64,000 nucleotides of DNA from Ginglymostoma cirratum (Eukaryota): assembly GCA_024137785.1 (NCBI GenBank), contig JAHRHZ010000081.1, positions 14,838,929 through 14,902,928 on the forward strand, read 5' to 3'. Positions within the stretch are counted from its first letter, which is position 1; every line of letters begins with the position of its first letter. Shown one piece after another: positions 1,346-50,305 of the stretch. Both the position numbers and the translations under genes were made by a program. The notes under the pieces are model-generated. The model made no database searches. It had not been told where the DNA came from and was given only the letters and a program-made list of their open reading frames with translations.

Positions 1346-2023
1346 TGATATTACCAAACAGTTACTCAACATCTTCACAAGAAATTGTTTCCTGTGCAAA
1401 AACAATGAAAGCGTTAAGGGATAACAAGCATGGGGCTGGATGAACACAGCAGGTCAAGCAGCATCATAGGAGCAGGAAAACTTGACGTTTCGGGCCTAAA
1501 CCCTTCAGCAGAAATGGGGAGGGGAAGAGGGTTCTGAAATAAATAGGGAGAGAGGGGGAGGCGGATAGAGGATGGATAGAGGAGAGGATAGGTGGAGAGG
1601 AGGCAGACAAGTCAAAGAGGCGGGGATGGAGCCAGTAAAGGTGAGTGTAGGTAGGGGGGTAGGGAGGAGATAGGTCAGTCCAGGGAGGACGTACAGGTCA
1701 AGGGGGCGGGATGATGTTAGTAGATAGGAGATGGGGGTGTGGCTTGGGGTGAGAGGAAAAACAGGTTAGGGAGGTGGAGATGAGCTGGGCTGGTTTTGGG
1801 ATGCGGTTGGGGGAGGGGAGATTTTGAAGCTTGTGAAATCCACATTGATGCCATTGGGCTGCCGGGTTCCCAGGCTGAATATGATTTGCTGTTCCTGCAG
1901 CCTTCGGGTGGCATCACTGTGGCATTGCAGGAAAAGAAAAGTTGTTGAGGGTGAGGACGAGTTCGGCTCGGCGGATGAGAGTGTCGGTGGAGGGGGATTG
2001 GTCCGTTCTGCGGGACAGGAAGA

Positions 2024-2938
2024 AGCTACCTGGAATACACCTCCTCCCACCCACCCTCCTGCAAAAATGCCATCCCCCATTCCCAATTCCTTCGCCTCCG
2101 CCGCATCTGCTCCCAGGATGAGACATTCCACTCCCGCACATCTCAAATGTCCTCATTCTTCAAGGACCGCAACTTCCCCTCAACAGTGGTCGAGAACGCC
2201 CTCGACCGTGTCTCCCGCATTTCCCGGAACACATCCCTCACGCCCCGTCCCCGCAATAATAACCAAAAAAGAATGCCTCTCGTCCTCACATACCACCCCA
2301 CCAACCTCCGGATCCAACGCATCATCCTCTGACACTTCTGCCATCTGCAATCAGACCCCACCACCAAAGACATTTTTCCCTCCCCACCCTTATCTGCCTT
2401 CCAGAGGGACCACTCCCTCCGCGACTCCCTTGTCCGCTCCACACTCCCCTCCAACCCCACCACACCCGGCACTTTTCCCTGTAACTGCAGGAAGTGCTAC
2501 ACCTGCCCCCACACCTCCTCCCTCACCCCAATCCCAGGCCCCAAGAAGACTTTCCACATCAGGCAGATGTTCACCTGCACATCTGCCAATGTGGTATACT
2601 GCATCCGCTGTACCCGTTGTGGCTTCCTCTATATCGGGGAAACCAAGTGGAGGCTTGGGGACCGCTTTGCAGAACACCTGCGCTCAGTTCGCAACAAACA
2701 ACTGCACCTCCCAGTCGCAAACCATTTCAACTCCCCCTCCCATTCCTCAGACGACATGTCCATCCTGGGCCTCCTGCAATGCCACAGTGATGCCACCCGA
2801 AGGCTGCAGGAACAGCAAATCATATTCAGCCTGGGAACCCTGCAGCCCAATGGCATCAATGTGGATTTCACAAGCTTCAAAATCTCCCCTCCCCCAACCG
2901 CATCCCAAAACCAGCCCAGCTCATCTCCACCTCCCTGA
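2024..2938 (+). pseudogene. PLE ORF C-terminus: RT thumb, Cys-rich linker and GIY-YIG endonuclease
   Basis: One frame: SYLEYTSSHPPSCKNAIPHSQFLRLRRICS...FPCNCRKCYTCPH...FTCTSANVVYCIRCTRCGFLYIGETKWRLGDRFAEH. A single TGA at 2330-2332 (likely CGA deamination) splits ORFs 2147-2332 and 2567-2938. Confidence 0.9.
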
Positions 2939-3190
2939 CCTGTTTTTCCTTTCACCTCAAGCCACACCCCCATCTCCTATCTACTAACATCATCCCGCCC
3001 CCTTGACCTGTGCGTCCTCCCTGGACTGACCTATCTCCTCCCTACCCCTCCACCTACACTCACCTTTACTGGCTCCATCCCCGCCTCTTCGACTTGTCTG
3101 CCTCCTCTCCACCTATCCTCTCCTCTATCCATCCTCTATCCGCCTCCCCCTCTCTCCCTATTTATTTCAGAACCCTCTTCCCCTCCCCCG

Positions 3191-3224
3191 TTTCTGCTGA
3201 AGGGTCTAGGCCCGAAACGTCAAG
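3191..3224 (+). ncRNA. Minimal hammerhead ribozyme motif in PLE pLTR (variant core CUGCUGA)
   Basis: ctgctga-agggtctaggccc-gaaa-cgtc. A mirror copy lies on the minus strand at ~1482-1513. Confidence 0.65.
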
Positions 3225-3639
3225 TTTTCCTGCTCCTATGATGCTGCTTGACCTGCTGTGTTCATCCAGCCCCATGCTTGTTATCTCGGATTCTCCAGCA
3301 TCTGTAGTACCTTTTATCTCTGATACAATGAAAGCATTAACTTGTTTAAGGTTTAAGAGTTAACACTTGCACTGAGAACAGGAGGAAATAATTTCATTGG
3401 AACATTTTTCCTGTCTCTACAATCACGTCGCACAGCCTGATTTCTTGGCTTTTGCACACATAGAACTTTTCCTGTAATTAGATGTAGATTAATTTGCAAT
3501 AAATTCATAGTAATAATGTTGCAATCCTCTTGTGTAAGTGTCAGTGGCCATTAAGGAGATGGAATGTGCTGAGTGTTGCCATCTGAACTAACAGCTGTTC
3601 CTTGACAAAATAACAGGGCAAGACAGACAGAAATAGACT

Positions 3640-3752
3640 GAATTTCCTACATTATAACACTGACTATGCTTGTAAAACAACTGATTGGATGAAAAGTGCT
3701 TTGAGATGTCAACTGATCATGAAAAACCCTATATGAAACAAGGTTCTTTTTT
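3640..3752 (+). mobile_element. Deu-domain SINE (SacSINE1/AmnSINE-like) 3' tail fragment
   Basis: 'tttcctacattataacactgact...aagtgctttgagatgtc...atgaaaaaccctatatg' resembles the recalled tail consensus. Confidence 0.55.
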
Positions 3753-3779
3753 GTAGCCACCCAAATGTTTCCACTGAGA

Positions 3780-4385
3780 TTAGGACTACAGACCGACATT
3801 AGCACGTCGGAACACCTGCCATTTGCGGTGGCTTGAGGTCGGTCACAGGCCTGGTCTCTCGAAGGCTCTCAGCCTGGTTTCTCGGCGGCTCTCAGCCCGG
3901 TCTCCCGGCGGCTCTCAGCCCGGTCTCTCGGCGGCTCTCAGCCCAGTCTCTCGGCGGCTCTTGGCAGTGTATTGGTTCTGTCTCTTGGCGACTCATGGTG
4001 GAGTGTTGGCTCGGCATGCGAGTGATTCCTGCCCGGGCATGTTCCCGAGGCATCTGCAGCGGCAGCATCGAGATCAGGCAGCTGAGATCTCCCAGAGAAC
4101 GAAATAAGTGGAGGACTCATCAAAGATCATTGAACTTTTAGTGCATTCCTTTATTTTCCTAGTTTAAACTACAAAAGACTTTGATGTAAACTACAACTTC
4201 TTTATTTTTCTGATATTGTGTGAAGTAAGGCTTAACTTTTTAAGTCTCGTTTTGTTTATCACTTTTTACTTAAGTTTGTTTTTGTACCTAAGTAGTCTGG
4301 TACCTAAGATAGCACCAAATGTGGCAAAATTATATGCTTCACCTGTACTTCTGTCCTTGAGTACGCAGGGCAATAAAATCTAAAA
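3780..4385 (+). mobile_element. VNTR-containing non-autonomous retroelement (23-bp unit)
   Basis: About 5 copies of ctctcagcccggtctctcggcgg (3845-3962), then a T-rich body and tail 'gtacctaagatagc...ttcacctgtact...gagtac...caataaa' shared with 13888-13985 and 44700-44830. Confidence 0.6.
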
Positions 4386-5030: not shown

Positions 5031-5179
5031 AGTCGTTCGTTTTAAAGTGTTTATGCATTAAATAGGCTTGATGTCCCATGGTTCAGCAAGTTCTCCGGTC
5101 TGACAGAAGTCCAGGTCCAGGGCTGCCGGATTGCAGATTGCAATTCAACCTGCATTGCATATTTTGTCTTTTATCTATG

Positions 5180-5470: not shown

Positions 5471-5496
5471 GACACCCCACAGTGTTTCCATTATAC

Positions 5497-7797: not shown

Positions 7798-8404
7798 GTC
7801 ATGTTCTGATGATGGTGACACCACCTGACTGACTGTAATATGACTCAACTGCACTGAGGACTGATTCACTTTGATTTTTGAGACATGACCATTTGACTGA
7901 AGCACCTACATTGTGTTAGATGTGAAAGCTGCTGGCATATGCCGTAGGTGTGACATTGGCACACCTAGGTGTGACAGGTGCCATACAGCAACATGACTGC
8001 TCAGTGCTATCAACCATGACAGGCTGTCTTCCTGTCTGTGTTAAAAGGCAGGGGACGCCAGAGGTATGAGCCCCACAGTAATTGCAAAGTGAGGAGTGTT
8101 AAGAAAAAGCAAGCTTAGAACTATAACATGCACACTGTGCTGATGTATTAGATAAGTGCAGAACAACCTGGCAGGAACATTGCAAAATAAGGGCTGAATA
8201 TTTATGTAATTGCAATATGAGCTCCAAAGTGCAATGGTGAGCTGCTGAAATGTATTGTGCATTAACTTGAGAGCAGCCACAATGATGTGGTGAGGCTGGT
8301 GTTTGTGCTTTATTCTGTGTGTTTTATTCCATGGATGACGATGGAAACAGATGCTGTCCAGGGAGAACGCAAAGACAGGTCAGTGAATGGGCTTTGAACT
8401 GGAG

Positions 8405-8566
8405 GCCATGATGTGGAGGTGCAGGTGTTGCATTGGGGTGGGGACAAGGTCAGAAATCAGATGACACCAGGTCACGTCACCTGAAGAAAGGGCAAATGCT
8501 CCAAAAGCTTGTGATTTCAAACAAATCTGTTGGACTATAACCTGGTGTTGTCTGATTTCTGACCTT
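8405..8566. mobile_element. Inverted-twin pLTR remnant, second hammerhead-bearing family
   Basis: 8446-8471 is inverted to 8541-8566. Degenerate hammerhead ctgaaga...gctcc-aaaa-gctt at 8481-8510. Flanking repeat ctttgaactggag / ctttagactggag. Confidence 0.65.
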
Positions 8567-9347
8567 TAGACTGGAGTCTCAGAGAAGAATGCAGCAAGCA
8601 TCAGGTACCATCACCACCTTGTTTCTGGGGAGAGGTGGGGAAGAATTACGAACTGCATATAAGTGAGGTCAGATTACCCTATAATGAGATAGAAATGCTT
8701 GGAAATAAGGTAGTCAATGCTCATGAGGGAGATTCAGATTCCTGGTTAAAACCTTAAGGGGACAATCAGAATTTTTCTCTCGATTCCAATACGTTCAATC
8801 TCACCATGTTTTCCCACGTTTCTCACCGTTGACTCGGCTGCTTGAGGGTTGGAAGATTCCACTCCAGGGGTTTGTTGCCATGTCAGCTCTGGCACCCTCA
8901 GTGAACTGCAATAGACAAAACCAGTTTCTCAAGGACTTTGTATTTTTCCTGTACTGGTGTTATGGACCAGACTGAACCCCCTTGAAATATATTCAGCAGC
9001 ACTGTTTCAACATTTGCAGGAAGCCACACCAGAAGGGCATAAGCATTTTCAGGGAGTTTTCAGGAGCATGTCGATTCTTTGCATGGAACTCCCAAATGTG
9101 CATTGATAACTTAGCAAGCTCTAAATGTGCGCCAGTATTTGCCCAGCATTCCTGGGATTGTGTTGACAATTTGTGTTATGTTCAGTTGAGCAAAACAAAT
9201 ACTTCAATCCTCATCACACCATTGTCTGATTTTCCAGGCAGTACAATGATATTCACAGTGCTCTGCAGTAAACAATTATACAACGAAAATCACTGATTTT
9301 ATTTTTTCAACAAGTGTGGGCATCATGTCCCAAATTGTCATTGAACT

Positions 9348-9438
9348 GACTGGCATTGCAGGAGGCCCAGGATGGACATGTCATCTGAGGAATGGGAGGG
9401 GGAGTTGAAATGGTTCGCGACTGGGAGGTGCAGTTGTT
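9348..9438 (-). mobile_element. Isolated internal fragment of the Neptune PLE GIY-YIG region
   Basis: Near-identical reverse complement of ~2697-2787 (QLHLPVANHFNSPSHSSDDMSILGLLQC). Confidence 0.9.
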
Positions 9439-10335: not shown

Positions 10336-11289
10336 TTTCATGAATTGCTGACATAATAATTCTGCCTCTGGGTCTTGCCATTTTAAACTCAGAGCTGTTC
10401 AACTTCCTGCTGAAACAAAGATAACACAATAGACCCTGTGGGTTTAGAGCGCATCACAGCACTGTGGTGGATTTTACCATTAAGATGCCTCCTAACTTCA
10501 AGAAGGAGGACGGATGGCTTATGCAATCATGCATTAACTAGCTGGAATTGCTTTGTTTGTTTTCCAACAAGTGGAATCGAATCAAATCCTTAAAAAAGAC
10601 ACAAAACGTGTTGTGTAAACCATCTTAGCAGTCCCTGCATTTTCTGCAATGTGAAATTATGCTGTGCTAAAGCACAGATCAGACTACCCCTGGTTGCTTT
10701 GGGAGCAACACCAATGTATCTCTACATGGTCTCATCTTGTGTCAAATGAGCAAGATATGTTTGCAAGATCTGCAAGAGGCAGGTGTTAAATTTGTTTCTC
10801 TTTGTTTGCATTATGCATGTTTCCCTTTGTGGTTTTGAGCGCGGGCAAAGTTGCTGCCTGCAGACATTTTAAGTTTCCTGAATGTATTAATTATTGCTGT
10901 AAATAAGCACTTCATTTAACTTGTGCAATTTTCCCTTCATGTTTTACTATTTAAATGTGTGATGATTAAATAGTTGGAAATGGGCAATGAATACAAAGCA
11001 CCAAGAGCAAATGGACCAACTGAATGGCATCGCCTCATTTATTTGATTGTAGAGAGTGCAGAGAAGGGAAACAAAGGATGGTTCTCAGCCAATTATTTGT
11101 GATGGGTACCACAAATAAGCAATGTCTCAGGAAATTTTGTTTGGGAGCCCTTCAAGTCTGAAAGTGTGCATTTAAGCCCAAGTCCAAAATTTGAGCCCAT
11201 CGTCCAGGCTGCTATTTAGTGCAGTATTGAGGGAATGCTGTGCTGTCAGAGGTAGTGTCCTTTCTTCTTACATCCCATCCTTGAGCCTC

Positions 11290-11792
11290 TAGTGAAGTCA
11301 TCACGGACTCCAGGCCTCAGTGCGGACTCCAGGCCTCAGCGCGGACTCCAGGCCTCAGCGCAGACTCCAGGCCTCTTCGCAGTCTTCANNNNNNNNNNAC
11401 GGACTCCCGGCCTCAGTGCGGACTCCAGGCCTCAGTGCGGACTCCTGGCCTCAGCGCGGACTCCCGGCCTCAGCGTAGACTCCCGGCCTCTTCGCAATCT
11501 CCAGGCCTCAGCACAGTCTCCCAGCCTCAGCGCGGACTCCAGGCCTCATTGCGGACTCCCGGCCTCAGTGCGGACTCCCAGCCTCAGCGCGGTCTCCTGG
11601 CCTCAGCACAGACTCCAGGCCTACAGGTGAAGCCAGAGCAGTCTCCTGGCCTTGAGAGCATTGAAGTGAAGCCCAGTTCGTTCTGGAGGCAAGGCCTGGC
11701 ATGGACTGAGTTGTAAGCACTTTAATTCTGAACTTTTTATTTCTTTATTTTTCTATTTCTCCCCTAAGGACCTGTACTTAAGAATCCGTACT
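11290..11792 (+). repeat. 19-bp VNTR (cggactccaggcctcagcg) in the 5' part of a non-autonomous element; contains a 10-N assembly gap
   Basis: Period 19 from 11304 to ~11625, with Ns at 11389-11398. The element resumes at 13888 after a LINE insertion. Confidence 0.8.
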
Positions 11793-13985: not shown

Positions 13986-14090
13986 TTTTTTGATTTAATT
14001 AATCTGAAATCCTATCTGCCTGTTCTGGTCATTTGGCAGATAGTAAAAGTCCATACAATGCAAAGAGGAGTAGAGAATTCTTTCAGTAGG

Positions 14091-14244
14091 AGAAATTACT
14101 GCAGATGCTGGAATCTGCCCTGAAAGCAACAAATGCTGGAGATCACAACGGGTTAGACAGTATCCATGAAGACACAGCAAGCTAATGTCTCAAGTCTAGA
14201 TGACTCTTCCGACCCACTGTGATCGCCAGCATTTGTTGTTTTCA
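14091..14244. mobile_element. Inverted-twin pLTR remnant, third family
   Basis: 14121-14153 is inverted to 14211-14244. The left arm is longer and starts at 'gaaattactgcagatgctggaatc'. Confidence 0.6.
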
Positions 14245-14494
14245 ATAGAGCGTTTTCCCAGTTGGATAAGGGTGTAAAGATCACAAAGTGTTAATTACTG
14301 AGGAATGCCTTAAGCACCACTGTTAAACTCTAGGGAGCTGGTGGGAGATCCTTGGTTAGGATCTCAAAGGAGTAAGCCTTAACATCTGGGTCTTCCACAT
14401 AGTCGTTGAAATGTACCAGAGAGCTCATACAGCATGATCAATTGTGAGGATTTTACAACATTTCCAGCTCCTTTGCCAGTATTATTTGGTAGGA

Positions 14495-18344: not shown

Positions 18345-18468
18345 TTTTGATGCTGCCTATTTCTGCCCTGTATCTTTCCAGATTTGGTTTGCATCTGGAG
18401 CAGATGGGATTTGAACCCAGGCCTGCTGGCTCAGAGGTAAAGACACTACCACTGCAGCAAAAGAGCCC
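18345..18468 (-). mobile_element. tRNA-derived SINE (relatives at ~16700-16940 +, 40570-40695 -, 59560-59780 +)
   Basis: Head 'gcagtggtagtgtctttacctctgagccagcaggcctgggttcaaatccc' with A/B-box-like motifs. Confidence 0.65.
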
Positions 18469-18477
18469 AACGTATGA

Positions 18478-18601
18478 TTTCTGAAGAAACGCCCCGACCC
18501 AAAACGTCCACTTTCCTGCTTCTCTGATGCTGCCTGGCCTGCGGTGTTCCTCCTCCACTGTGTTATCTCTGACTCCAGCACCTGCAGTTCTTGCTATCCC
18601 C
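18478..18601 (+). mobile_element. Solo PLE pLTR 3' end with degenerate hammerhead
   Basis: ctgaaga-aacgccccgaccc-aaaa-cgtc...tgttatctctgactccagcacctgcagttcttgctatcc. Confidence 0.75.
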
Positions 18602-18727
18602 AACATATTCATGATTGTTCTACCGCCGAGCTTTTGCCTGAATAAAGAATGCACTGTTCCATCAACTTTTTTTGGGGCATTATTGCAATCTGAAGCTGCA
18701 CAGTCTGGAATAGTTTTCATTCATAAT

Positions 18728-22013: not shown

Positions 22014-23230
22014 GTAAATGTGAGGCATATTACAAGTTGTTTTTGTTGCGTGGTAAAACCATATAAGCCAAAAGGATTATATCTGAATTCTTATTACATT
22101 TTAATATTGCCAAATATGCTAGAAATGGAATTGCAGTGAAATTTAAAAACTGTCCCATAAAATGTTGTAGTTTGATTTATCTCTCGCTGATATTTATCGA
22201 TTTTATTTCTGTGCTGTAAATGTCTGCTTTATGTAGCAGAATAATGCCTGAACAAAGAATTAATTCTTTACGTGAATGTTGTATTTTCAAATATGAATCT
22301 GTATAGAGGATGCACAGTGACTGGAATTTACTAATACATTTCTATAGTGATTGAGCTCTGTGCACCCTTTCAAATCAGGTGTAAAGTTCATTGTAATTTA
22401 CATTTTCATACACTCTAGGTGTACTGTAAGACAGAGCTAATTAAGCTCTGTATGAAGCACAATGATAACTTTCAAAATAGTGTAAATTGTCTTGTAGTGT
22501 GATCGTAGCATGTAATGGTGATCAGGTGCTTTTAGTACATTGTAGCTGTCAAACAGGATTCTGGTATGTTGAGATATAATCTTGTCAGTTTTCTCTTGCC
22601 CTGTATTTAAAAAGGAGAAATTTGTGGTCTCTGTCACATGTGTAGTTTAAGATTATAAGCAGTGCTTTTGTTGTTTTTGATTCTAAACTAAGACTCTACC
22701 AGTGACGGATGTTTAGTCTTCAATGTTTTCTGCTCTTGTCTTTACTTCTGGATTGTTAGTAATTTCCATGCACAAAAATGATTGAAAAGATTTGGTTGGT
22801 TCTGTTTAACGACAGAAATGACTGCTCAAATCTAAACAACAAAAGTCTGGGTAGACAGAATCTGTGGAATGACACGCAGGGTCCCTGTTTCAGGTGGCGT
22901 TTCTTTCAAAGTGGAAAGTTGTTTGTAACATTTTGTGTTTTTTAACTTCAGTTTTGATTTTGTCAGTTTGAAAGCCTGCAATTTATGCTGTGTACTCGTA
23001 GGAGAAACACTTAGTTGTAAGTTGCTGTTATGTCAGCTACACAATTTGTTTGGTCTTCATTAAAGTTTTCAGGCATCAGCATGTTCATTTATGATTTCAT
23101 ATGTTTGATGCCTGGAGGTTACGTTTAACTGCACTGTTTTTACATGACCTTGCACTTTGTACAGAAATGCAGCAATTTGCATTGGAGCAGCTTCATCTAT
23201 AAAACATAACTTGCAAGGAGTTATGAGTGA

Positions 23231-23374
23231 GGACTTGACGTTTCGGGCCTAAACGGTTTAGGCCCGAAACATCAAGTTTTCCTGCTCCTATGATGCTGCT
23301 TGACCTGCTGTGTTCATCCAGCCCCATGCTTGTTATCTCGGATTCTCCAGCATCTGCAGTACCTTTTATTTCTG
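23231..23374. mobile_element. Miniature inverted-twin PLE pLTR
   Basis: Palindrome acttgacgtttcgggcctaaac-g-gtttaggcccgaaacatcaagt. TSD aaggagttat(g/a)agtga at 23215-23230 and 23375-23390. Confidence 0.85.
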
Positions 23375-25897: not shown

Positions 25898-26298
25898 CCT
25901 TTTGGTCTCGATACATTGAGGGGGCTAGAAACTGTATTGATCACCTTAGGGTGTGCATTGTGAATATCCAGGTTATTGAGATTGTATTGAGAAACCTCCA
26001 AGTGGAACTTTTTGTATAGAGATTTATTTCTGTTGCACTCTAACTTAGAAGTTGAGATATTTTGCTCGAGCTGTCTACCTAACATGGGCTGTGTCTTGTA
26101 AATATCAATACTATAATACAGTTGCATTGAGGTTCTTAAGAATGGAGCATGCTGTACAGATATGAGTTGAATTTCTTTGCACATTCTGTAATATTCAAAT
26201 CAATGCTTTGTAATTGATTTTTCTGAATTTTATGAACAAGGTTTATTTGAAGAGAAAAATATCCATGAGAATTCTGTGTAAAAGGTACTGAAATAATA

Positions 26299-26514
26299 GA
26301 GATAGTAGGAACTGCAGATGCTGGAGAATCTGAGATAACAAGGTGTAGAGCTGGATGAACACAGCAGGCCAAACAGCATCAGACAAGCAGGAAAGCTGAC
26401 GTTTCGGGCCTAGACCATTCTTCAGAAAATAGGTCTAGGCCCAAAATGTCAGCTTTCGTGCTCCTCTGCTGCTTGGGCCTGCCGTGTTCATCCAGCTCTA
26501 CACCTTGTTATCTC
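26299..26514. mobile_element. Miniature inverted-twin PLE pLTR
   Basis: Arms ~26332-26416 and ~26432-26514 are inverted. Imperfect flanking repeat tactgaaataata / tattgagataata. Confidence 0.85.
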
Positions 26515-26714
26515 ATTATTGAGATAATAAATTCAGGATTTGGGAAATAATCCAGTTGTCAGTTTGTTGCAGTGCTGAGTGTGCTGAATTGTTAAAAATG
26601 CTGTCTTTTGGATAAATTGGGTGCCAATTCTGCAATTTACCTCTGGCTACCAAAGATCCCGCAGAAGCAAGAGATTTGCCAGATTCCCTGTCCAGTATCT
26701 CATTCAATACGCTC

Positions 26715-27990
26715 GAAGAGGTTGCAGACTTGCTCACTGAGCCAGTGTGTTTGATTGCAGACATTTTGTCACCCTGCTAGGTAACATCGTCAGTGCGCCA
26801 CTGGTGAAGTGTTGGTGTTCTGTCCTGCTTGTTATTTATGTGTCTCGGTTTGCAGGGGTGGTTGCTATTACTTACGGTTCTGTTTCTCAGTGGTTTGTGT
26901 AAGCGGTCCAGTTCAACTAGTTTATTGACAGAGTTGCAGTTGGAATACCAGGCCTCCAGGAATTCCCTGACATGTCTGTTGGCTTGTGCTATTATGCTTG
27001 TGTTGTGCCAGTCAAATTGATGTCCTCCTTTGTCCGTGTGTATTGAGACCAGTGAGAATTGATCATGTTTCTTGGTGGCTGATTGGTGTTCATGTATCCT
27101 TATTGCCAGTTTTCTTCCAGTTTGGCCCATGTAATGTTTCTCACAGTCCTTGCATGGTATTTTTATACATCATGTTAGTTTTATTGGTTGTGGGTATGGG
27201 GGGCTCCTTTACGTTTGTTAGTGGCTGTCACAGGATGGTTGTTAGTTCGTGGGCTACCCTGATACCTAGGGGTCTGAGTAGTCTTATGGTCATCTCCGAG
27301 ATGTATGGTAGGGTGACTGGTCGTGTTCTGTCGTCTTGTTGTGGTCTGTCATGGAAGTAATGATGGATTGTGCTTTTTGGGTAGCCGTTCCTTTTAAAAA
27401 CTCCGTACAAGTGCTCCTGTTCTGCTTTGCGCAATTCTGGATTGCTGTAGTGTGTTGTGGCTCATTTGAATTATGTCCTGATGCAGCTCCATTTATGGGT
27501 ATTGGGGTGGTTGCTGGTGTTATTAAGTATCTGGTCCATACGTGTGGTCTTTCTATACACACTAGTCTGGAGTTCCCTGTTGTTCTTGCATTCCACCATT
27601 ATGTCCAGGAAAGGTAGTCGGTTACTCTCTTCTTTTGTGAATTTTATTCTGGTGAGAATGTTGTTTACTTGTCTGAGAGTTTCTTCTAGTCTTGCGCGTT
27701 TGATGATCGTGAAGATGTCATCTACATAGCAGACCCAGACTTTGGGTTGGATAGTGGGTAAAGCCGTCTGTTCTAATCTTAGTAGAAGCGGTAATGCAAT
27801 CAGTCCTGATATTGGGGATCCCATTGGTATTCTGTTGATTTGTTTGAATATATGGCTGCTGAAGGTAAAGTGGGTTGTGCGGCACAGATCTTGTAGTTTC
27901 ATGGTGCTGTCCTTGATGCTGTTGGTGTCATGGGATGGCTGCCTTTTCTGATTTGCCCAGCAGTGTGGCAGTTACAGTGGCAAATGCAGC
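26715..27990 (-). mobile_element. Penelope/Poseidon-like PLE, degenerate RT and GIY-YIG
   Basis: PMGSPISG..WVCYVDDIF..LPFLD..VYRKTT..SNHP (27471-27902), then thumb (27228-27434) and GQTGRKLAIRIHEH..REFLEAW (26777-27130). No Cys linker seen. Confidence 0.9.
26757..26797 (-). ncRNA. Hammerhead ribozyme motif at the 3' end of the Poseidon-like PLE (GAAA mutated to AAAA)
   Basis: gca-CTGACGA-tgttacc-tagcag-ggtgac-AAAA-tgtc-tgc. Helix II and a short helix I can pair. Confidence 0.65.
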
Positions 27991-28586
27991 CACCTTCACG
28001 ACTTGAGCTACAAAGCCTGATGCTCAAAGAGTTGACCTAATCGTTCGTCTCGTTTGTTAATACGTTTGATCACTGTTTGTTTCTGACTTTCTTTGGGATA
28101 TCCTGAGCAAGGCTATTTTGAAATCTTGAAGCTGGACCTCCAGCTTCAAGATTTATTTTTGTACATCTAAGCAATTTTAGACAATTTAAAAGAAAATTTT
28201 AGAGATTTTAAAGCCATGTTTTGTTGCCAAGGACTGTTGTATGTCAAAAATTGTACTTTTACCTGTGTGAAGAGATTTAGGGACTGGATCTTTCTGACAT
28301 GAATCATTTGTTGTTACCAACTGGATCAAAGTTGTGAATTTTCAATATTTTCCTAGTCCAGGAAGGCATTTTACCTGCGTTTCTTCTTGAGCTATATAAT
28401 TCTGATCTGTGGTCCTGTTAAAGCTGCAAGTCTGTTCAGTTGTTCATTGCATTGTTCTTCTCATAAAGCTAAACATGCGTGAGGGTAGCTCATCAGGGAT
28501 CAAGGGAAAATAGTTTATTAAACCAAACCTGCCAGGGTGGTGGGAAGGGAGAGAGTGCTCACTTCAATCAGTATTGTTACTCGTAA

Positions 28587-32486: not shown

Positions 32487-33202
32487 GAGTGCAGTGAAGG
32501 AAATTTATCTTTATTATTCTGCTGCAAGGTTTGCGTTGGGCATAATCAAAACTTGCTCTTTTGACGTGTGTCATATTTGCATACTGAATCTAAACATTAT
32601 TGTTCCTAAAATGTCATGGTCAAGCTTATAATTAAGTTACTAATACAGTTCCTACCTTACATCAGTGGTCACATTTGAAAAAGGTACACTGGCATTCCAG
32701 TAAGTCCTGCAGTTTGTGGAAAGTGCTTCATAAATAGTTATTTCTAAAAGAACTTGGCTGAACACTTGAGACATCTTAACATTCAAGACGATGGTCCAAG
32801 TGCTGCTAAGTGGCACTAGTGTAGTTTGTGTTGGTGCAGACTTCATCGGCCAAAGGGCTTCTTGGTACTGCATTGAGAAATACAGTCCCTTAAAAGGACC
32901 CAAATGTTTGCTATGGTTGAGTCAGATTTAGTGACGACATGTTGCCACCAGGGTATAAGTTCCAATTTGGGTACAGAAAATGCCACTTGCAGCTCTTAAG
33001 GTACCACTGGTTATTATCTTCCTGCTCAGTCTAAATGTTTTGAGCCAATTGAATGTTGCTTCATTGCAGAATAATTTGTTGCTTGCTTACTGCCATGCTT
33101 CATCCATTTTAACCATTTATAATGATGATTCTGTTGAAGTTGACTGGCTTCAATTGTATGTACTGTCTTTCTTTTCAAAAAAAAAAGGCTGTTTGTAGCT
33201 GG

Positions 33203-33422
33203 AAAGAGATAGTAGGAACTGCAGATGCTGGAGAATCTGAGATAACAAGGTGTAGAGCTGGATGAACACAGTAAGCCAAGCAGCATCAGAGGAGCAGGAA
33301 GGCTGACGTTTCAGGCCTAGACCCTTCGTCAGAAAATGGGTCTAGGCCCGAAACATCAGCCTTCCTGTTCCTCTGATTTTGCTTGGCCTGCTGTGTTCAT
33401 CCAGCTCTACACCTTGTTATCT
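33203..33422. mobile_element. Miniature inverted-twin PLE pLTR with a hammerhead on the minus arm
   Basis: Perfect 14-bp TSD ctgtttgtagctgg at 33189-33202 and 33423-33436. Minus strand ctgacga-agggtctaggcct-gaaa-cgtc at 33305-33332. Confidence 0.9.
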
Positions 33423-33619
33423 CTGTTTGTAGCTGGGCTGCATATGCCGTTTTGTTTATTCCAGGAGCTCATTATTTAAATGCCATGCTATAATCCAAGA
33501 TTTTGCTGCAAACCAGAGTTGTTGAGAGCTGTAATTATGATAGACAGGAAGTTCATGTCACTATTTGCAAATGTGAAACCATATTGAACTGTCTTGCTTT
33601 TGGCACACCTTCAAATGGG

Positions 33620-36600
33620 AATACAAATGTAGTACTGGAGAAACTCAGCAGGTCTGGTAGCAACTGTAGAGAGAAGAAAGTTAACATTTTGAGTTCATTG
33701 TTTTGAATTCATCCTTTGTCAGAATTGACTTTTCAGGACTGGTGAGCATGTTTAGCAGCAATTATGAAGTCGATGGACTGAAAAAAATTGCATTTTATTT
33801 TTACAAGGCAAAAGAATGTTCACTAAACTCCTTGGAGAAATCCCCACCAACTGTGGTCGACAGGACCCTTGCCCGTGTCCAGCCAATTTCCTGCACTTAT
33901 GTACTCACCCCTTCTCTTCCTTCCCACAGCACCCAAAAAGGAACCCCCCTGCCTTTTATTCCTCAGTTGTCACCCCACTAGCACTTGCATCTAAGGGCTC
34001 ATAAGCTGACAATGCCATCACCAGACAGACTATCTCCTTCCCTCCTTTGTCAGCATATCATAGGGATTATTCCACCTGGAACACCCTGGTCCACTTCCCC
34101 TGCACTCCCAACATCCCCCGCACGGGACCTTCCCATGTGGTTGCAGAAAGTGCAGGATTTGCCCATTTAACGCCAGCGCCCCCTTCACTAATCAAAGCTC
34201 CAGACACACCTTCCAGGTAAAGCAGCAAGTAACCTGCATTTCACTCAATCTGCTGAATTCACTGCTCGCAATGTCTCCCTCTACATTGAGGAGACAAAAT
34301 GCTGCGTGGGCAACCACTTTGCTGAGCCAACTACATTCTGTCTGAAAAGCCTATCCTGAGCTTCCAGTTGCCTGCCACTTCAACGTGTTACTGTGTTCCC
34401 TAGCTAACCTTTCTGTCATGGACCTGCTGCAGTGCTCCATCAAGGCTCAGGGCAAGCTGGAAGAACAGCATTTCTTTCTGCTCAGGTATCCAGCAGCCTT
34501 CATGACTCAATACTGAGTTCATTTACTTTTGAACCCACAACCCAGTCTTTGTTAGCACAGCCTTCTTCTGGTCCCCATTATCAGTGTGGCTTTCTCTCTC
34601 TCAATCATCTATCTTGTCGGCCTAATTGTTGTTCTCTGTCTGGTCTTCATCTCTGCCTATCTGTTTACCATCCACACCCAAACTCCTGTCTTGTAAGGCC
34701 ATAAGATACAGGAGCAGAAATTGGGCCATTCAGCCCACAGACTCTGCTCCACCATTCAATCATGGCTGATAAGTTTCTCAACCTCATTCTCCCACCTTCT
34801 CCCTGTAATTTTTGATCCCCTTCATCAAGAACCAATCTATCTTTGTCTTAAATATACTCAGTAACTTGGCCTCCACAGTCCTCTGCAGCAATAAGTTTCA
34901 CAGACTTACTGCCCTCTGGATGAAGTTTCTCCTCATCTCTGTTCTGAAGGGTCTTCCCTTTACTCTAAGGCTGTGCCCTTGACTCTTAGTCTCTCCTGTT
35001 AATGGAAACATCTTTCCGACGTCCAATCTATCCAAAGTCCTCAAACATTCCTCAAATGTTAAGCCTTTCATTCCTGGGATCGTTCTTGTGAACTTCCTCT
35101 GGACCCGTTCCAGCGCCAGTACATCCTTCCTGAGTTACGGGGCCCAAAATTGCCCACAATGTTATAAATGTGGTCTGATCAGAGCTTCATAAAGCCTCAG
35201 AAGTACATCCTTGCTTTTATATTCTAGTCCTCTCGAAATAAATTCCAACATTGTAAGTTGCCTTCCTAACTAGTGACTTAACCTGCAAGTTAACCTTCAG
35301 GGAATTTTGGACTAGGACTTCCAAGTCCCTCTGCGCTTCAGATTTCTGAATTTTCTCCCCATTTACCAAAATAGTCTATGCCATAATCTCAGGAAGGATG
35401 TATTGGCCCTGGAGCGGGTCCAGAGGAAGTTCATGAGAATGATCCCAGGAATGAAAGGCTTATGTTTGAGGAACGTTTGAGGACTTTGGATAGATTGGAC
35501 GTTGGAAAGATGTTTCCGTTAACAGAAGAGACTAAGACTCTGACCAAAGTGCTTCACCTCACACTTTCCCACATTGTATTCCATCTGCCATTTCTTTGCC
35601 CACTTCCCTAACCTGTTTAAATCCTTCTGCTGCCTCCTCACTGCCTCAACACTTCCTGTCCCTCCACTTATCTTTGTATCATCTGTAAACTTAGCCAGGA
35701 TGCCCTCCGTTCCTTCATCGCTAGTCACCAGCTGCTATACTGAGAAGGACCCTTTGATCCCCATTCTCTGCTTTGTGCCAGACAGCCACTCTTCTGTTCA
35801 AGTTAATACCTTGCCTCTAACACCGTAAGCCCTTATCTTTCTTGGCAGCCTCTAGTATGGCACCTTGTCAAAGGCCTTCTGGAAGTCCAAGTAAATAATA
35901 TTCATTGGCTTTCCTTTGTCTTGCCTGCTCATTGCCACCTCAAAGATTTCTAGCAGATTTGTCAGGCATGACCTCGGCTTGATGAAACCATGCTGACGTT
36001 GCTTTATTTTACCATGCACTTCCAAGTATTCTGAAATCTCATCCTTCACAATGGATTCAAAGATCTTACCAATGACCGAGGTCAGGCTAATTGGTCTGTA
36101 ATTTTCTGTCTTTTGCCTTGCTCCCTTCTTAAAAAGGGGGGTTGCATTAGTGATTTTCCAGACCTCTGGGTCCCTCCCTGACTCCAGTGATTCCTGAAAG
36201 ATCACCACTAATGTGAGCACTATCTCTTCAGCTGTTTCTTTCAGAGCTCTGATGTGTAGTCCATTTGGTCCAGGTGATTTATCCACCTTCAGACCTTTGT
36301 TTTTCTGGCACCTTATACTTAGTGATGGCCATCCGATTCTCAAATTTTGGGATGTTGCTCGTGTCTTCCACCATGAAGACAGACTCAAAGTACATGTTCA
36401 GTTCTCTTGCCATTTCTTTGTTCCCCATTGCTACTACTTCAGCATAATTTTCCCGCGGCCCAGTGTCCACTTTTGCCCTTTATATATCTAAAGAAACTCC
36501 TGCAGTCGTCTTTTATTGCTGGTTAGCTTACCCTCCTATTTATTTATTCTCCCTCCTCCTCTTTCTTTTTTTTAGTTATGCTCTTTTGGTCTTAGTAGGC

Positions 36601-37584: not shown

Positions 37585-37950
37585 GTTATAGTTGTACAAC
37601 ATGGAAACAGACCCTTCGGTTAAACTCGTTTGTACCAACCAGATAGCCTACACTAATCTAGTCCCATTTGGCGCGTATCCCTCTAAACCCTTCCTATTCA
37701 TGTACCCATCCAGATGCCTTTTAAATGTTGTAATTATACTTGGCTCCACCACTTCCTTTGGCAGCACATTGCATACACGCACCACCCTCTGCATGAAAAA
37801 GTTGCCCCTTAAGGTCCCTTTTTAAATCTTTCCCCTCTCACCTTAACCCTGTGCTCGCTGGTTTTGGACTTCCCTACCCTGGGGGCAAAAGACCTTGACT
37901 ATTCACCCTGTCCGTGCTCCTTATGATATTACAAACCTCTCTAAGGTCCT
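37585..37950 (-). mobile_element. HER1/CR1 3' end
   Basis: 'gtcccatttg...ccctctaaacc...cagatgccttttaaatgttg...aaaaagttgcccct'. Confidence 0.85.
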
Positions 37951-38449
37951 GAATCAAAGGTTCCTCTTCCCCTCCTCTTTTGCAGCCCTCCGCCCTTTCC
38001 ATCCTTCCTATAGCATCAATACCCTGGAACATTACGTTGCCAGTCCTGCTCTTCCCTGAGCAAATGGGACTTGATTAATTTAGGGTAGCTGGTTGCTGTT
38101 TACGAGTTGAACCAAAGGGTCTATTTCCGTGCTGCACAACACTAATGCGTGTTCTTTTTAAAAATAAATTCCCATTTCATTCCATAAATTAAAAATAGAA
38201 TTAAAGGAGATATTGTCTTTACACCTGTACTCAAGTTTAGTCTTGGTGTCAGATTCAAATTAATTTCAGGAAAGGAAACTTCATGCTATCAGGAAATTGC
38301 TAGACTTTGAGTGTCTTCACGTCCTGTGACAACTATTATTGTATTGCTGGGAAGCCAGAAAACAGGGTCTAGGTGGTTGTTTATTGGGACAAAAACATCA
38401 AATATAAAATTTTATTCCAAATGGCTGTGCACAGACAATTATCCAGGCT

Positions 38450-38630
38450 AAGGCAACAAGGTGTAGAGCTGGATGAACACAGCAGGCCAAGCAGCATCAG
38501 AGCAGCAGGAAGGCTGACGTTTCGGGCCTAGACCCTTCAGCTCCTCTGCTGCTTGGCCTGCTGTGTTCATCCAGCTGTATACCTTGTTATCTCAGATTCT
38601 CCAGCATCTGCAGTTCCTACTATCTCTGAA
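38450..38630. mobile_element. Miniature inverted-twin PLE pLTR
   Basis: TSD acaattatcc(a/g)ggct at 38435-38449 and 38631-38645. Arms 38455-38495 and ~38548-38589 are inverted. Confidence 0.88.
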
Positions 38631-39769
38631 ACAATTATCCGGGCTTATTCTTTTTCCAAGCTGTTCATTCTCATACAGATGTTAAGATTACCACTCAGTT
38701 TGAGCTGTTCGTATTTCTCTGCTCTGTCTTCATAACTGGGGGATCATCATTACAGCTCTTTTCAATGCCTCATGATTTGAATGTCCTGTGTGTTTTGGCA
38801 AAAAGAGCTTGCTGTGGTACTCCATGCTGTACTTGGAAAATTTCACAGCACCTCCTCAGTAGTATGTTGCTATTTTACCCATATAGATCAATGGTATTTA
38901 GCTTTGCTGATTCTGTCTTGATGGCTTTTGAGAATCAAGAATTACAGGTCTTTTTACCGGCATTTCATATTTTAATGCTGTCCAAGAATACACCTTTTTT
39001 TTAGAAAAAAATGTTTTAAAGTTAGTTAAGAGGCAACTTAATACAATAATGTCTGAGCTGCAAAAACAATAGAAATGAGCTAATCTAAATTGTGTGATTC
39101 ACAAATCTGGCTAGAATCTGCTGCACTTAGCGAATAAGGATTCGGCTCTCAGACAGTAGTCAGCCATTCAGAACTAAGATGAGGGGACACTTCTTTGCAT
39201 AAGAACACTACTTTGAATTTTTGGATTTCTTTGCAGAGAATTATAGCAGCTCAAATGATCATGTCTTTGTCAGATCAACAGACTTTTGGATGCTAAAATA
39301 ATCAATTAATATGGAGACTAGGCAGTGAAGAACAGCTGAGGTAGATGACCTGTGATCTTATTGGAAAGTGGAGCAGGCTTGAGGAATCTGATGACTCATT
39401 TCTCATATTGTGGACTGCATCTAAACTGGTTATCTGGAATTATTTGTACAAGGATGTTTCCGAACTGTTACTTATTGACTTCTCAACTTGAGCATATTGC
39501 ACAGTGTAAATCTAAATTGAGAGATTATCTTACGGCAGAATTGCGCCCAATTAGTCAAGATTGAGAGTCTTAAGACAAATCCAAACAGTGATTAAAATCT
39601 GAAGTCATTTGTAGTTGGATCAAATTTTTCACCTCAATTGAAACCTTGAATTAAATTGAAATGTTTGCATTATTACTACTTAGTTGTTTTTTGCCTGTGT
39701 AAGTGGTGTCTGTTAATGACAAAAATTGTACTTTGACCGTTAGGGGCATCATTACTTCTAATTTTCTAC

Positions 39770-47653: not shown

Positions 47654-47672
47654 CTGTGCCACCTAGTGGTGA
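47654..47672 (-). promoter_or_regulatory. Candidate CTCF binding site
   Basis: Minus strand TCACCACTAGGTGGCACAG matches the core CCASYAGRKGGCRS. Confidence 0.6.
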
Positions 47673-47824
47673 CGCTGTCAGGAAATGTAGTATTGTGTAC
47701 ACGCACGAATTGCGGTGTCAGAGCATTAAAACTTAACTGTCAGTATATCCTTTAGTGCTTAAGCAAGACTAGTGTTGATTTTATTAGCATTTTACTCATC
47801 TGTATTGAGAACAACAATCCACTC

Positions 47825-48608
47825 GGATAGTAAGAATTGGCGATGCTGGGGTCAGAGATAAGTGTGGAGCTGGAGAAACACAGCAGGCCAGGTAGCGTCA
47901 GAGGAGCAGGAAAGTTGACGTTTTGGGTCGGGACCCTTCTTCAGAAATGGGGGAGGGGGAAGGGAGCTCGGAAATAGATAGAGAGGGGAGGGGTGGTGCA
48001 GGGGAAGGTAGGTGGAATGGAGATAGATGAGTGCAGATAGGGAGTGGTGGGGATTGGTCAGCGAGGTGGGAGGACCGGATAGATGAGAGAGAAGATGGAC
48101 AAGTTGTGTCAGGTCAAGGAGGCGGGGATGAGAGGGAGGGTTGGACATGGGATGAGGCCAAGGGGTGGGGTATCAATGGTATCAGTGTGGACTTCACAAG
48201 CTTTAAGATCTCCCTTCCTCCAACCGCATCCCAAAACCAGCCCAGCTTGTCCCCGCCTCCCTAACCTGTTCTTCCTCCCACCTCCAGCCTCACGCCCATC
48301 TCTTACCTACTAGCCTCATCCCGCCCCCTTGACCTGTCCGTCCTCCCTGGACTGACCTATCCCCTCCCTAACTCCCCACCTACACTCACCTTTACTGGCT
48401 CCATCCCCACCTGTTTGACCTGTCTGTCTCCTCTCCACCTATCCTCTCCTCTATCCATTTCCTATCCGTCTCCCCCCCGCTCCCTGTTTATTTCAGAACC
48501 CCCTTCCCCTCCCCCATTTCTGAAGAACGGTCTAGGCCCGAAACGTCAGCTTTCCTGCTCCTCTGCTGTTTGGCCTGCTGTGTTCGAGTTCTACATCTTG
48601 TTATCTCT
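47825..48608. mobile_element. Divergently joined PLE 3' ends from two subfamilies
   Basis: Minus arm 47825-48170 (hammerhead stem gggtcccgaccc). Plus arm 48171-48608 (NGISVDFTSFKIS; hammerhead ctgaaga-acggtctaggccc-gaaa-cgtc at 48520-48547). Confidence 0.85.
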
Positions 48609-49902
48609 GCATCTCAAGGTCCTGTAGTTGTTGTAACCTTTGTCTAGAAGAATGTGTTAAAGTAGTATTTAGTAAATATGTACAATGGTGATTTAAGAAT
48701 GACAATGAAGTTAGATTCTACTGATGTAATCTGAGACTGCCTCTCCTGTTGCCTTTGCAATCGTATGATCACACACTGTTTTAAAGGCTACAGTTTCTAG
48801 TTAGAATATTGTTTATTTTACTTACATGTATATACCTTCCCTACTGTTTACAAGTTGTTCTACCTATTTCATGCAGTTGTTTTTATCTGAAGATATACTA
48901 ATCCTGTAAAACTTCTAGATAATGTTTGAATACTTTGCATCTCCAACAAATTTTTTGACTTAAATGTCAAAACTGATATTCTTTTTTAAATTCCGTATCC
49001 ATACGGAGATGTTGATTTCAAGTTGGTTGAAAATACAGCTAGCAAGATTTGTAGATTGGTGTCTTGATCCAGACAAGCCATTGGCCTTGATTCAGATAGG
49101 GACTGATAACAATCAGAATTTGAGCATTTACTTTGGCTCCTTCAACAGGCACATTTAGTACAGGAGCTTGCCACTCCAGAGTAGCCCTTCTGCTTTTACC
49201 AGTTTGACTGCAGATTTTGGATTCATCCCTTAATTCAATTTTCAGAATACCCCAGAATTAAGCTTGAACATTTAAACATTTTGAAGTCATTTTGATCTTT
49301 GGTTTTACTACATTTGGAATTCTGATTTTTGCTCCATTGTAAAATGAAATTCAGGACACTGGAGTGAACAAAGAACAAAGAAAATTACAGCAGCGGAACA
49401 GGCCCTTCGGCCCTCCAAGCATGCGCCGATCCAAGAGGGTAAACAAGATCTGCTAAAGTGATAATTTAGTTGAGAGACTCTGAGGAAAGTCTGAACAGAT
49501 CGGGATAATTTCTTCTGAAGACTGAGTAGTTAGTGACCTAATACATGTCTGTAAGGCTCAAAAGGGGAGACAACTGCCTGGTGATGCTATTGCTAAACTA
49601 TTCATGCAGAACAAGAATGAAGTTAGAATCCACTAAGGCAATCTGATTCTGCCTGTTCTGCGGACCCAAGTTTGAATCTTGCAACAACAGATGGAATTTG
49701 AATTCAATGAATATCTGCAATTAAGAATCTACTGTGATCATGAAACCATTGTTGATTATCGTAAAAACCTATTTGGCTCAATAATATTGTTTAGGGAAGA
49801 AAATCATCCTCACCTGGTCTGGCCTACACGCCACTCCAGATCCGTAACAATGTGTTGACTCTTAACTGCCATCTGAAACGGTCTAGCCATCCACTCATTT
49901 GT

Positions 49903-50127
49903 CCTAGAGATAATAGGAACTGCAGAAGCTGGAGAATCCGAGATAACAAGGTGTGGAGCTGGATGAACACAGCAGGCCGAGCAGGAAAGCTTTACGTTTC
50001 GGGCCTAGACCCTTCATCAGAAATGATGAAGTTTTCTGATGAAGGGTCTAGGCCCGAAACATCAAGCTTTCCTGCTCCTATGATGCTGCTTGGCCTGCTG
50101 TGTTCATCCAACTCCACACCTTGTTAT
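49903..50127. mobile_element. Miniature inverted-twin PLE pLTR with CUGAUGA/GAAA cores on both strands
   Basis: Minus core at 49993-50020 and plus core at 50036-50063. Flanking repeat cactca(t/c)ttgt at 49892-49902 and 50128-50138. Confidence 0.88.
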
Positions 50128-50305
50128 CACTCACTTGTATTAACTGTTGCGAAGTCTCAAGAAAGAAATGAAACCAGACGGACCACCTGGCATCAACCTA
50201 GGCACCAGAAAAGACAATAGCAGAAACAGCCCTGTTGACCGTGCAAACTCCTGACTAACGTCTGGGGGCTAGTGTCAAAATTGGGTCTCACAGACCAGTC
50301 AAGCA

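What the first reader, a model, noticed from the sequence alone, without database searches (positions are those of the whole stretch)
1402..50138. Stereotyped inverted-twin Penelope insertions: two 3' ends facing outward, offset by ~25-40 nt, inside one target duplication, in at least three families
Seen: insertions at 1418-3324, 23231-23374, 26299-26514, 33203-33422, 38450-38630 and 49903-50127 each consist of a full pLTR 3' end (…CAGTTCCTACTATCTC type) joined to an inverted second 3' end. They are flanked by 11-16 bp direct repeats with 0-2 mismatches. In all but 23231 the second arm stops at the internal TTGTTATC(TC) motif, ~35 nt short of the true end. Sequence-distinct families at 8405-8566 and 14091-14244 show the same long-arm/short-arm asymmetry. 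Established: PLEs are known to have inverted 5' pLTRs, a short 3' tail extension and minimal hammerheads. Inference: both target strands are primed at fixed points on pLTR RNA 3' ends, possibly on two RNAs held together by dimeric hammerheads, producing 150-220 bp MITE-like palindromes at roughly one per 8 kb. The inversion itself is known; the density, miniaturisation and clean TSDs are what stand out.
Basis: partly seen in the sequence, partly recalled or inferred. Interest (0 to 1): 0.75.

Follow-up and report, generated by a model that had tools for sequence, protein, structure and literature searches.

The report
Miniature head-to-head Penelope insertions in shark
This shark DNA holds eight insertions of Penelope-type jumping genes, each made of two inverted copies of the element's 3' end inside one duplicated target; the layout is already known from other animals, but each insertion has exactly one long end, which likely means both cut DNA strands were used to prime copying at two set RNA sites in one event.

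Summary
Eight inverted twins lie in 64 kb: six of one family and one each of two others. Seven are 144-225 bp; one is 1.9 kb and carries a GIY-YIG endonuclease with Neptune-type cysteine motifs. Target duplications are 9-16 bp: four are far beyond chance, three modest, one weak. All eight carry the 31-44 nt tail on one arm only; five of six family-1 short arms end within 7 nt. Orthologous contigs from two related organisms stop aligning exactly at the duplication of the 1.9 kb copy, as an empty site would.

The architecture is published: inverted pLTR, duplication and one-sided tail in rotifer and other PLEs; two RT start sites, both-strand priming and a predicted dimer in the anole element. 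What the window adds: strict one-tail pairing, three twins whose arms are not nested (against simple fold-back), arms sharing a rare hammerhead-core change (one source, cleavage dispensable), and junctions clustered at the hammerhead. Best reading: two-strand target-primed reverse transcription. The hammerhead-dimer tether is neither shown nor excluded. No genome-wide count was possible.

The parts
1402..1417 (.). Twin A, left target duplication (16 bp)
   Evidence: 1 mismatch to 3325-3340; 0 of 1495 random pairs as good
1418..1932 (-). Twin A short (tail-less) arm: end of endonuclease, 3' UTR, pLTR to ref 100-102
   Evidence: 514 nt, 97.9% to 2772-3285, 11 differences
1933..2021 (-). Twin A short arm, RT island joined to the endonuclease end across an internal deletion; absent from the long arm
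   Evidence: matches residues about 20-51 of P0001, while the long arm starts at residue 166
2022..3324 (+). Twin A long (tailed) arm: RT thumb, CX4CxxC linker, GIY-YIG endonuclease (one stop codon at 2330), 3' UTR, minimal hammerhead at 3194-3221, tail
   Evidence: GIY-YIG E 2.4e-5; 91% to P0001 over 297 aa
3325..3340 (.). Twin A, right target duplication
   Evidence: contigs of organisms B and C begin aligning exactly at 3325 (table 8)
8405..8563 (.). Family-2 miniature twin: tailed arm on - (about 8405-8472), tail-less arm with hammerhead-like motif on + (about 8473-8566); duplication 8392-8404 / 8564-8576
   Evidence: hammerhead-like motif read by eye, family assignment inferred
14090..14239 (.). 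Family-3 miniature twin: tailed arm on -, 33-nt tail-less arm on +; weak duplication 14081-14089 / 14240-14248
   Evidence: (P 0.082)
18476..18598 (+). Solo tailed arm of a related subfamily, 5' end at ref about 4; duplication 18466-18475 / 18599-18608
   Evidence: 10/1, P 0.027
23231..23374 (.). Twin B: 23-nt arm on -, tailed arm on +; duplication 23215-23230 / 23375-23390
26299..26516 (.). Twin C: tailed arm on -, tail-less arm on +; duplication 26286-26298 / 26517-26529
33203..33422 (.). Twin D: tailed arm on -, tail-less arm on +, same junction as C; perfect duplication 33189-33202 / 33423-33436
38450..38630 (.). Twin E: tail-less arm on - (ref about 13-97), tailed arm on + (ref 46-139), arms not nested; duplication 38435-38449 / 38631-38645
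47826..48629 (.). Inverted pair of two different subfamilies, no duplication; not counted as a single-event twin
   Evidence: arms 235 of 305 aligned bases identical
49903..50127 (.). Twin F: tailed arm on -, short templated-looking insert, tail-less arm on +; duplication 49892-49902 / 50128-50138

Best explanation
These are insertions of Neptune-type Penelope-like retrotransposons in which two inverted copies of the pLTR 3' end share one target duplication, likely made in one event in which both nicked target strands primed reverse transcription on element RNA from one source copy. Inferred steps: (1) the element protein, likely as a dimer, nicks the two strands 9-16 nt apart, leaving 3' overhangs that become the duplication; (2) one 3' end primes at the distal RNA start site (tailed arm) and the other at the proximal site 31-44 nt upstream (tail-less arm); (3) both cDNAs usually stop near the hammerhead, 60-140 nt in, which gives the miniature size; (4) the two cDNA ends are joined by 0-3 nt microhomology and gaps are filled. 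Whether one RNA is read twice, a tandem transcript supplies two pLTRs, or two sister RNAs pair is unresolved. Shown: geometry, duplications, end points, one tail per twin, protein motifs. Inferred: every biochemical step, by analogy with the anole element.
For: Duplications flank the whole inverted unit. Contigs of organisms B and C align to the right flank of twin A and stop exactly at 3325 although the family is abundant in those runs (records 32 and 16). 8 of 8 duplication-flanked twins carry exactly one tail; independent choice of site at each end would give at most 0.5^8 = 0.004 (hand calculation; the 16 local inverted hits held no duplication-flanked long-long or short-short twin). In 3 of 8 (A, E, family 2) each arm holds sequence the other lacks, which copying one arm from the other cannot give without later deletions. 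In the anole element both ends of the tail are RT start sites, both strands are cut and extended, and a dimer is predicted (PMC11167929). Both arms of A share C at 3197 where 96-99.8% of laid depth in four runs reads A: one source, with a changed hammerhead core base. 10 of 11 miniature family-1 arm 5' ends lie at ref 1-19 (P 3.5e-5). Loose-end consensus in all four runs follows the element through the short-end motif and then decays (table 7; rough).
Against: 5 of 8 twins are nested or tied and their junctions also fit a fold-back hairpin (C and D: 3-nt microhomology around a 13-15 nt loop; B: near-perfect hairpin). Palindromes tend to lose their centres (own knowledge), and A has at least one internal deletion, so non-nesting may be secondary. 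Twin B's short arm does not end at the proximal site. In vitro the anole element showed no difference in start site between strands, so the pairing is not explained by that paper. C and D share one junction, and a consensus of 531 loose ends in organism C begins with the same letters, as a replicating miniature would give. The letters left of the break in B and C were not shown, so the empty site is inferred. n = 8, one window. Start-site data come from a Poseidon element, not a Neptune one.
Confidence: 0.6

Rival explanations
1. Fold-back (self-priming): one strand primes at the distal site, the cDNA folds back at a short complement near the hammerhead and copies itself, stopping about 35 nt short; related to the self-priming proposed for Adineta vaga.
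For: Junctions of B, C and D read as hairpins with 2-3 nt stems; 5 of 8 twins nested or tied; arms always of one subfamily and sharing rare variants; B reads as an aborted fold-back; both solo arms carry the long end. Self-priming is the published proposal (PMC3846280 Discussion).
Against: A, E and family 2 are not nested. It gives no reason for the copy to stop at a point that is an RT start site on RNA in the anole element.
Confidence: 0.2
2. Replicating miniature masters: a few palindromes arose once and are retrotransposed as units, as non-autonomous elements.
For: C and D share a junction; the same letters head a consensus of 531 loose ends in organism C; depth in run X5 piles up in the last 130 nt (1.34 million against 18-56 thousand upstream, not a copy number).
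Against: Five different junctions among six family-1 twins. C and D share no arm-specific variant, and at one site both arms of D differ from both arms of C. A copied palindrome should show ragged 5' ends, not a fixed short end in three families. No such pile-up in run X6.
Confidence: 0.1
3. One reading: two RNAs held together by a hammerhead dimer, each primed by one strand, with both RTs stalling at the tether. A special case of the best explanation.
For: Junctions cluster at the hammerhead. Family-1 helix II is self-complementary: homodimer 15.2 kcal/mol better than two monomers, 3-7 of 200 shuffles as good, best of 84 windows along A. Minimal PLE hammerheads are thought to act as dimers (PMC4209133).
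Against: No such self-complementarity in the 8405 family, the 18476/47826 subfamily or the Poseidon copy (34-170 of 200), weak at 14090 (26 of 200). Two equal RNAs do not explain one tail per twin. A's junction is over 1 kb from the hammerhead. Catalytic mutants did not affect insertion in vitro, although that tests cleavage, not pairing.
Confidence: 0.2
4. Independent insertions side by side in opposite orientation, or DNA-level rearrangement after insertion.
For: The 47826-48629 pair has arms of two subfamilies and no duplication, so this does occur.
Against: One duplication around both arms in eight loci; same-subfamily arms in 6 of 6 family-1 twins; clean break at 3325 in two relatives.
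Confidence: 0.04

Closest known systems
Adineta vaga Pen2a/Pen2/Pen3a and Drosophila virilis Penelope inverted-pLTR insertions (PMC3846280; PMC2377424)
   Same: Inverted pLTR copy at the 5' side, whole unit inside one 8-10 bp duplication, 31-37 nt tail optionally on one of the inverted ends, palindromic junction.
   Different: Those units carry the ORF or cargo; here seven of eight are 144-225 bp of pLTR only, at eight per 64 kb, with 9-16 bp duplications. The published explanation was self-priming.
Anolis Poseidon PAc in vitro (PMC11167929)
   Same: Two start sites bracketing a 30-40 nt tail downstream of a hammerhead; both strands cut and extended; cleavage by the ribozyme not needed.
   Different: Poseidon clade; no strand-site coupling seen in vitro; the text read does not treat inverted genomic insertions (one hit for 'inverted', about a blocking nucleotide).
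Neptune/Naiad PLE structural scheme (PMC8557442)
   Same: Inverted 5'-truncated copy, tail often at one end only, CX2-5CxxC linker and CCHH cysteines.
   Different: No count of tail pairing or of miniature palindromes in the passages read; mechanism called undefined there.
L1 twin priming (recalled, not read)
   Same: Both target strands prime; inversion inside one duplication; microhomology at the junction.
   Different: L1 arms are adjacent, non-overlapping parts of one RNA, with a variable second site set by complementarity; here the arms overlap by 23-514 nt and the second site is fixed.
MITEs; non-LTR retrozymes (bioRxiv 10.64898/2026.07.22.740005)
   Same: Small, non-coding, inverted (MITE) or hammerhead-bearing and PLE-derived (retrozyme).
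   Different: Ends asymmetric, duplication length variable, arms are retroelement 3' ends; head-to-head pairs, not tandem arrays.

Membership tests
EN+ Penelope-like element | RT followed by C-terminal GIY-YIG endonuclease | tested here: met
   Twin A: Pfam GIY-YIG E 2.4e-5; RT island and thumb match P0001, which has RVT_1 and GIY-YIG hits. Miniatures belong by pLTR sequence.
EN+ Penelope-like element | Two cysteines of the CCHH motif between GIY and YIG | tested here: met
   VVYCIRCTRCGFLYIG in the 2333-2938 frame; definition in PMC8557442.
EN+ Penelope-like element | Minimal type I hammerhead in the pLTR | tested here: met
   Core motif in 7 family-1 arms among 9 pattern hits, with the extra base after A9, G10.1-C11.1 and palindromic 15.2-16.2 described in PMC4209133. 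Rfam gave 0 hits at gathering score. Motif only.
EN+ Penelope-like element | Hammerhead self-cleavage | not testable with these tools
   Needs an RNA assay.
EN+ Penelope-like element | Optional 30-40 nt tail | tested here: met
   31-44 nt offsets in 7 twins.
EN+ Penelope-like element | pLTR and tail overlap the start of the ORF | tested here: inconclusive
   A frame is open from the hammerhead through the tail in some copies, but a search for longer proteins beginning with it found 1 hit among 14 candidates, a chimeric model.
Neptune clade | CX2-5CxxC linker between RT and endonuclease | tested here: met
   CNCRKCYTC; feature shared with Nematis and Naiad, absent in Poseidon.
Neptune clade | RT phylogeny with reference Neptune elements | not tested
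   No reference set held; 'Neptune-type' rests on the linker and domain order.
PLE (families at 8405 and 14090) | Link to a PLE coding region | tested here: inconclusive
   No coding part in the window. 14090 shares a tail motif with family 1; 8405 rests on a hammerhead-like motif and the asymmetry.
MITE | Symmetric terminal inverted repeats abutting the duplication | tested here: not met
   One arm extends 31-44 nt further.
MITE | Fixed duplication length; uniform copies | tested here: not met
   9-16 bp; five junction types in six twins.
L1-type twin priming | Inverted arms are non-overlapping segments of one RNA (recalled definition) | tested here: not met
   Arms overlap by 23-514 nt. It works like twin priming but is not that product.
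Non-LTR retrozyme | Head-to-tail tandem units each with a hammerhead | tested here: not met
   All pairs are head-to-head; definition from the preprint.

The most novel reading that the evidence does not exclude
The twins are a genomic footprint of an asymmetric Penelope dimer: in each event one subunit primes at the distal and the other at the proximal RNA start site of RNA from one source copy, and both stop at the hammerhead, which acts as a structural stop or tether rather than a cutter. This would explain the inverted pLTR and the one-sided tail of PLEs by one rule, and shark genomes would hold many thousands of miniature records with which to test it.
Probability: 0.4. Interest if true: 0.65.

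Novelty: new variant of a known kind. Interest (0 to 1): 0.43.

Why it matters
How Penelope-like elements make their inverted ends and one-sided tails is called undefined in the literature read (PMC8557442), with self-priming proposed in 2013 and two-site, two-strand priming shown in vitro in 2024 without being tied to the inversions. A dense set of short twins with intact duplications lets these models be told apart by counting alone (tail pairing, nesting, shared variants). It also warns that such 150-220 bp palindromes can be misfiled as MITEs. The element class, the inversion, the tail, the duplication and the hammerhead are all known, which caps the interest.

Tried and rejected
No whole genome is held for this window, so no genome-wide table. 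Exact-pattern scans for more copies found 0 in viral contigs, prokaryote genomes and metagenomes. Rfam at gathering score: 0 matches. No RNA holder listed among 24 runs; no evidence on expression. Runs X1 and X5 (organism A) do not cover the unique flank of A, so no within-species test. The joint tables were cut (15 shown, 538 more not shown; 4931 loose ends not shown), so inversion junctions could not be counted; table 6 reported no place where many molecules begin or end. Depth drop over the tail was not used as evidence. A protein search with the pLTR frame did not show that the tail codes for the ORF start. Earlier findings of this scan: nothing returned. Supplementary Fig. S2 of PMC11167929 gave only labels and may show inverted copies. 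Lunse et al. 2017 is not held. Rejected: MITE, retrozyme, L1-type product, hammerhead cleavage as the arm boundary (cut after ref 36; no arm starts at 37). The 47826 pair was left out of the twin count for lack of a duplication, and the 34-bp palindrome at 28121 because its family is unknown. A possible inverted arm on the Poseidon-like copy was not significant (7.3% of 2000 shuffles as good). A recurrent 3-nt difference between arms of C and E could mean two templates, but lies in a short repeat where slippage is likely; not used.
Full report
Check of the observation. I aligned every arm to a 136-nt reference taken from the window (reverse complement of 33205-33340; positions called 'ref'). 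All six family-1 loci are inverted pairs with 3' ends outward. Long arms end at ref 135-139 in 6 of 6. Short arms end at ref 97-103 in 5 of 6 and at about ref 41 in twin B (23231); the clustering has a simulated chance of 0.0005. The loci at 8405 and 14090 show the same asymmetry, with tails of 41-44 and 31-36 nt. Direct repeats were scored against 1495 random position pairs: A 16/1, B 16/1, D 14/0 and E 15/1 were never matched; F 11/1 gave 0.011, C 13/2 and 8405 13/2 gave 0.027, and 14090 9/1 gave 0.082. An unbiased self-comparison gave 16 local inverted hits, which include these eight and no duplication-flanked twin with two tails or none. The same work found an inverted pair at 47826-48629 with arms of two subfamilies and no duplication, and two solo tailed arms.

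What it is. The long arm of twin A encodes an RT thumb, a CX4CxxC linker and a GIY-YIG endonuclease with two cysteines between GIY and YIG. These are the marks of Neptune-type EN+ Penelope-like elements as defined in PMC8557442 (passages); no RT tree was made. The closest proteins are from Rhincodon typus (93%) and Stegostoma tigrinum (87%) among 13 hits, so the host is close to carpet sharks. The pLTR holds a minimal type I hammerhead motif of the kind described in PMC4209133 (passages); Rfam does not score it. Families 2 and 3 have no coding part in the window, so their PLE status is inferred.

Single event. Contigs from four runs were laid on 1940-3830, one arm of A plus its right flank. 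In organism B (record 32, 688 nt) and organism C (record 16, 1124 nt) the flank aligns from exactly 3325, the first base of the right duplication. The remainder does not align to the element: 195 and 555 letters if record positions run in the record's own direction, at least 64 in C otherwise. This is what an empty site gives, but those letters were not shown and the left flank was not in the stretch. Loose-end consensus at 3270-3274 follows the element through the short-end motif and then decays in all four runs, a rough sign that the short end is common in these genomes. Most joints and loose ends were cut from the output.

Evidence on mechanism. (a) Each of 8 duplication-flanked twins has exactly one tail; independent choice gives at most 0.004 (hand calculation). 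(b) Nesting: in B, C, D, F and family 3 the short arm lies within or level with the long arm. In A, E and family 2 it does not: A's short arm holds an RT island (residues about 20-51 of P0001) upstream of where the long arm starts (residue 166), E's short arm reaches ref 13 while its long arm starts at ref 46, and family 2's short arm extends about 65 nt beyond the long arm's 5' end. (c) Source: arms are of one subfamily in 6 of 6 family-1 twins, and both arms of A carry C at 3197 where 96-99.8% of laid depth reads A. That base is A6 of the hammerhead core (numbering from own knowledge), so the source RNA likely had an impaired ribozyme and still transposed. (d) 10 of 11 miniature family-1 5' ends fall at ref 1-19, the 5' half of the hammerhead (P 3.5e-5); none starts at the cleavage site after ref 36. 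(e) Junctions show 0-3 nt microhomology. C and D share one junction, seen also at the head of a 531-contig consensus in organism C, but they share no arm-specific variant. (f) Family-1 helix II can pair between two RNAs (15.2 kcal/mol better than monomers; 3-7 of 200 shuffles), but the 8405 family, the 18476/47826 subfamily and the Poseidon copy cannot, and 14090 only weakly.

Best model (0.6). Staggered nicks 9-16 nt apart, each 3' end priming on element RNA from one source, one at the distal and one at the proximal start site; cDNAs mostly stop near the hammerhead and are joined by microhomology. Geometry and counts are shown; the biochemistry is inferred from the anole Poseidon element. The stop near the hammerhead could be an RNA 5' end, a structural stall or a tether; I cannot tell. 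Rivals: fold-back (0.2), replicating miniature masters (0.1), independent insertions (0.04). The hammerhead-tether version (0.2) is a special case of the best model. Against the best model: five twins fit fold-back equally, central deletions can fake non-nesting, twin B breaks the short-end rule, no strand-site coupling was seen in vitro, and n is 8.

Comparison with what is known. PMC3846280 (passages; Discussion) describes inverted pLTR units in 8-10 bp duplications with a 31-bp tail optionally on one inverted pLTR and proposes self-priming. PMC8557442 (passages) says the tail is often at one end only and the inverted structures are mechanistically undefined. PMC11167929 (parts 1-2 of 4; passages; supplement list and an unreadable figure) shows two start sites bracketing the tail, both-strand cutting and extension, a predicted dimer and no need for ribozyme cleavage. 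PMC2377424 (passages) describes inverted terminal repeats of variable size and the 34-bp repeat in Drosophila. Also seen in passages only: PMC6155905, PMC7761336, PMC8455134 and the 2026 retrozyme preprint (part 1 of 5 and passages). L1 twin priming is recalled, not read. Eight full-text searches returned no listing that describes miniature PLE palindromes in sharks or a count of tail pairing; most hits were seen as listings only, subscription papers and Repbase/Dfam were not searchable, and the unseen Fig. S2 may bear on this.

Verdict. Real, and largely an instance of known PLE behaviour in miniature. The added value is that the shark twins make the open question of how PLE inversions form testable by counting, and already lean towards two-strand priming with coupled start sites. 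Novelty: new variant of a known kind. Interest 0.43; 0.65 if the coupled-dimer reading (probability 0.4) holds.

Noticed in passing
window 26721-28021 (- strand): Decayed Poseidon-like PLE: RT (RVT_1 E 8.5e-5) and endonuclease remnants, hammerhead-like motif near 26770-26800, candidate 10-12 bp duplication (26709-26720 / 28020-28031); a possible inverted arm at 27930-28020 was not significant.
   Followed up: partly
window 33635-34480: Old Neptune-like fragment: inverted pLTR-like arm at 33635-33694 followed by thumb/endonuclease remnants on +; 3' end not found.
   Followed up: partly
window 47826-48629: Head-to-head pair of two PLE subfamilies, no duplication; probably two insertions fused by a deletion, though a two-RNA event is not excluded.
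   Followed up: partly
window 28121-28154: 34-bp near-perfect palindrome with a 6-bp flanking repeat (P 0.08); family unknown.
   Followed up: partly
window 33205-33240 and equivalents: Both family-1 ends finish in the same hexamer TATCTC, about 35 nt apart, with a predicted short hairpin between them; a candidate signal for RT initiation, not seen in families 2 and 3.
   Followed up: partly
window 1418-1419 and 23231-23232: Both twins of the A/B subfamily have the same two extra bases between the short arm and the duplication; unexplained.
   Followed up: no
window 34981-35540 and 37591-38140: Local inversions in non-PLE repeat fragments (LINE-like by eye), arms 154 and 80 nt, no convincing duplication.
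   Followed up: partly
window 9351-9438: Isolated 88-nt endonuclease fragment 98% identical to twin A, with no pLTR end.
   Followed up: no
run X17, places 2885-2922 and 2033-2063: Many contigs in organism C show joints between 2919-2922 and 2885-2887 with varied filler letters: a recurrent junction near the ORF end, kind not shown.
   Followed up: no
window 11265-11660 and 3849-3985: Tandem arrays of 19-nt and 23-nt units; the first spans the window's only run of N.
   Followed up: no
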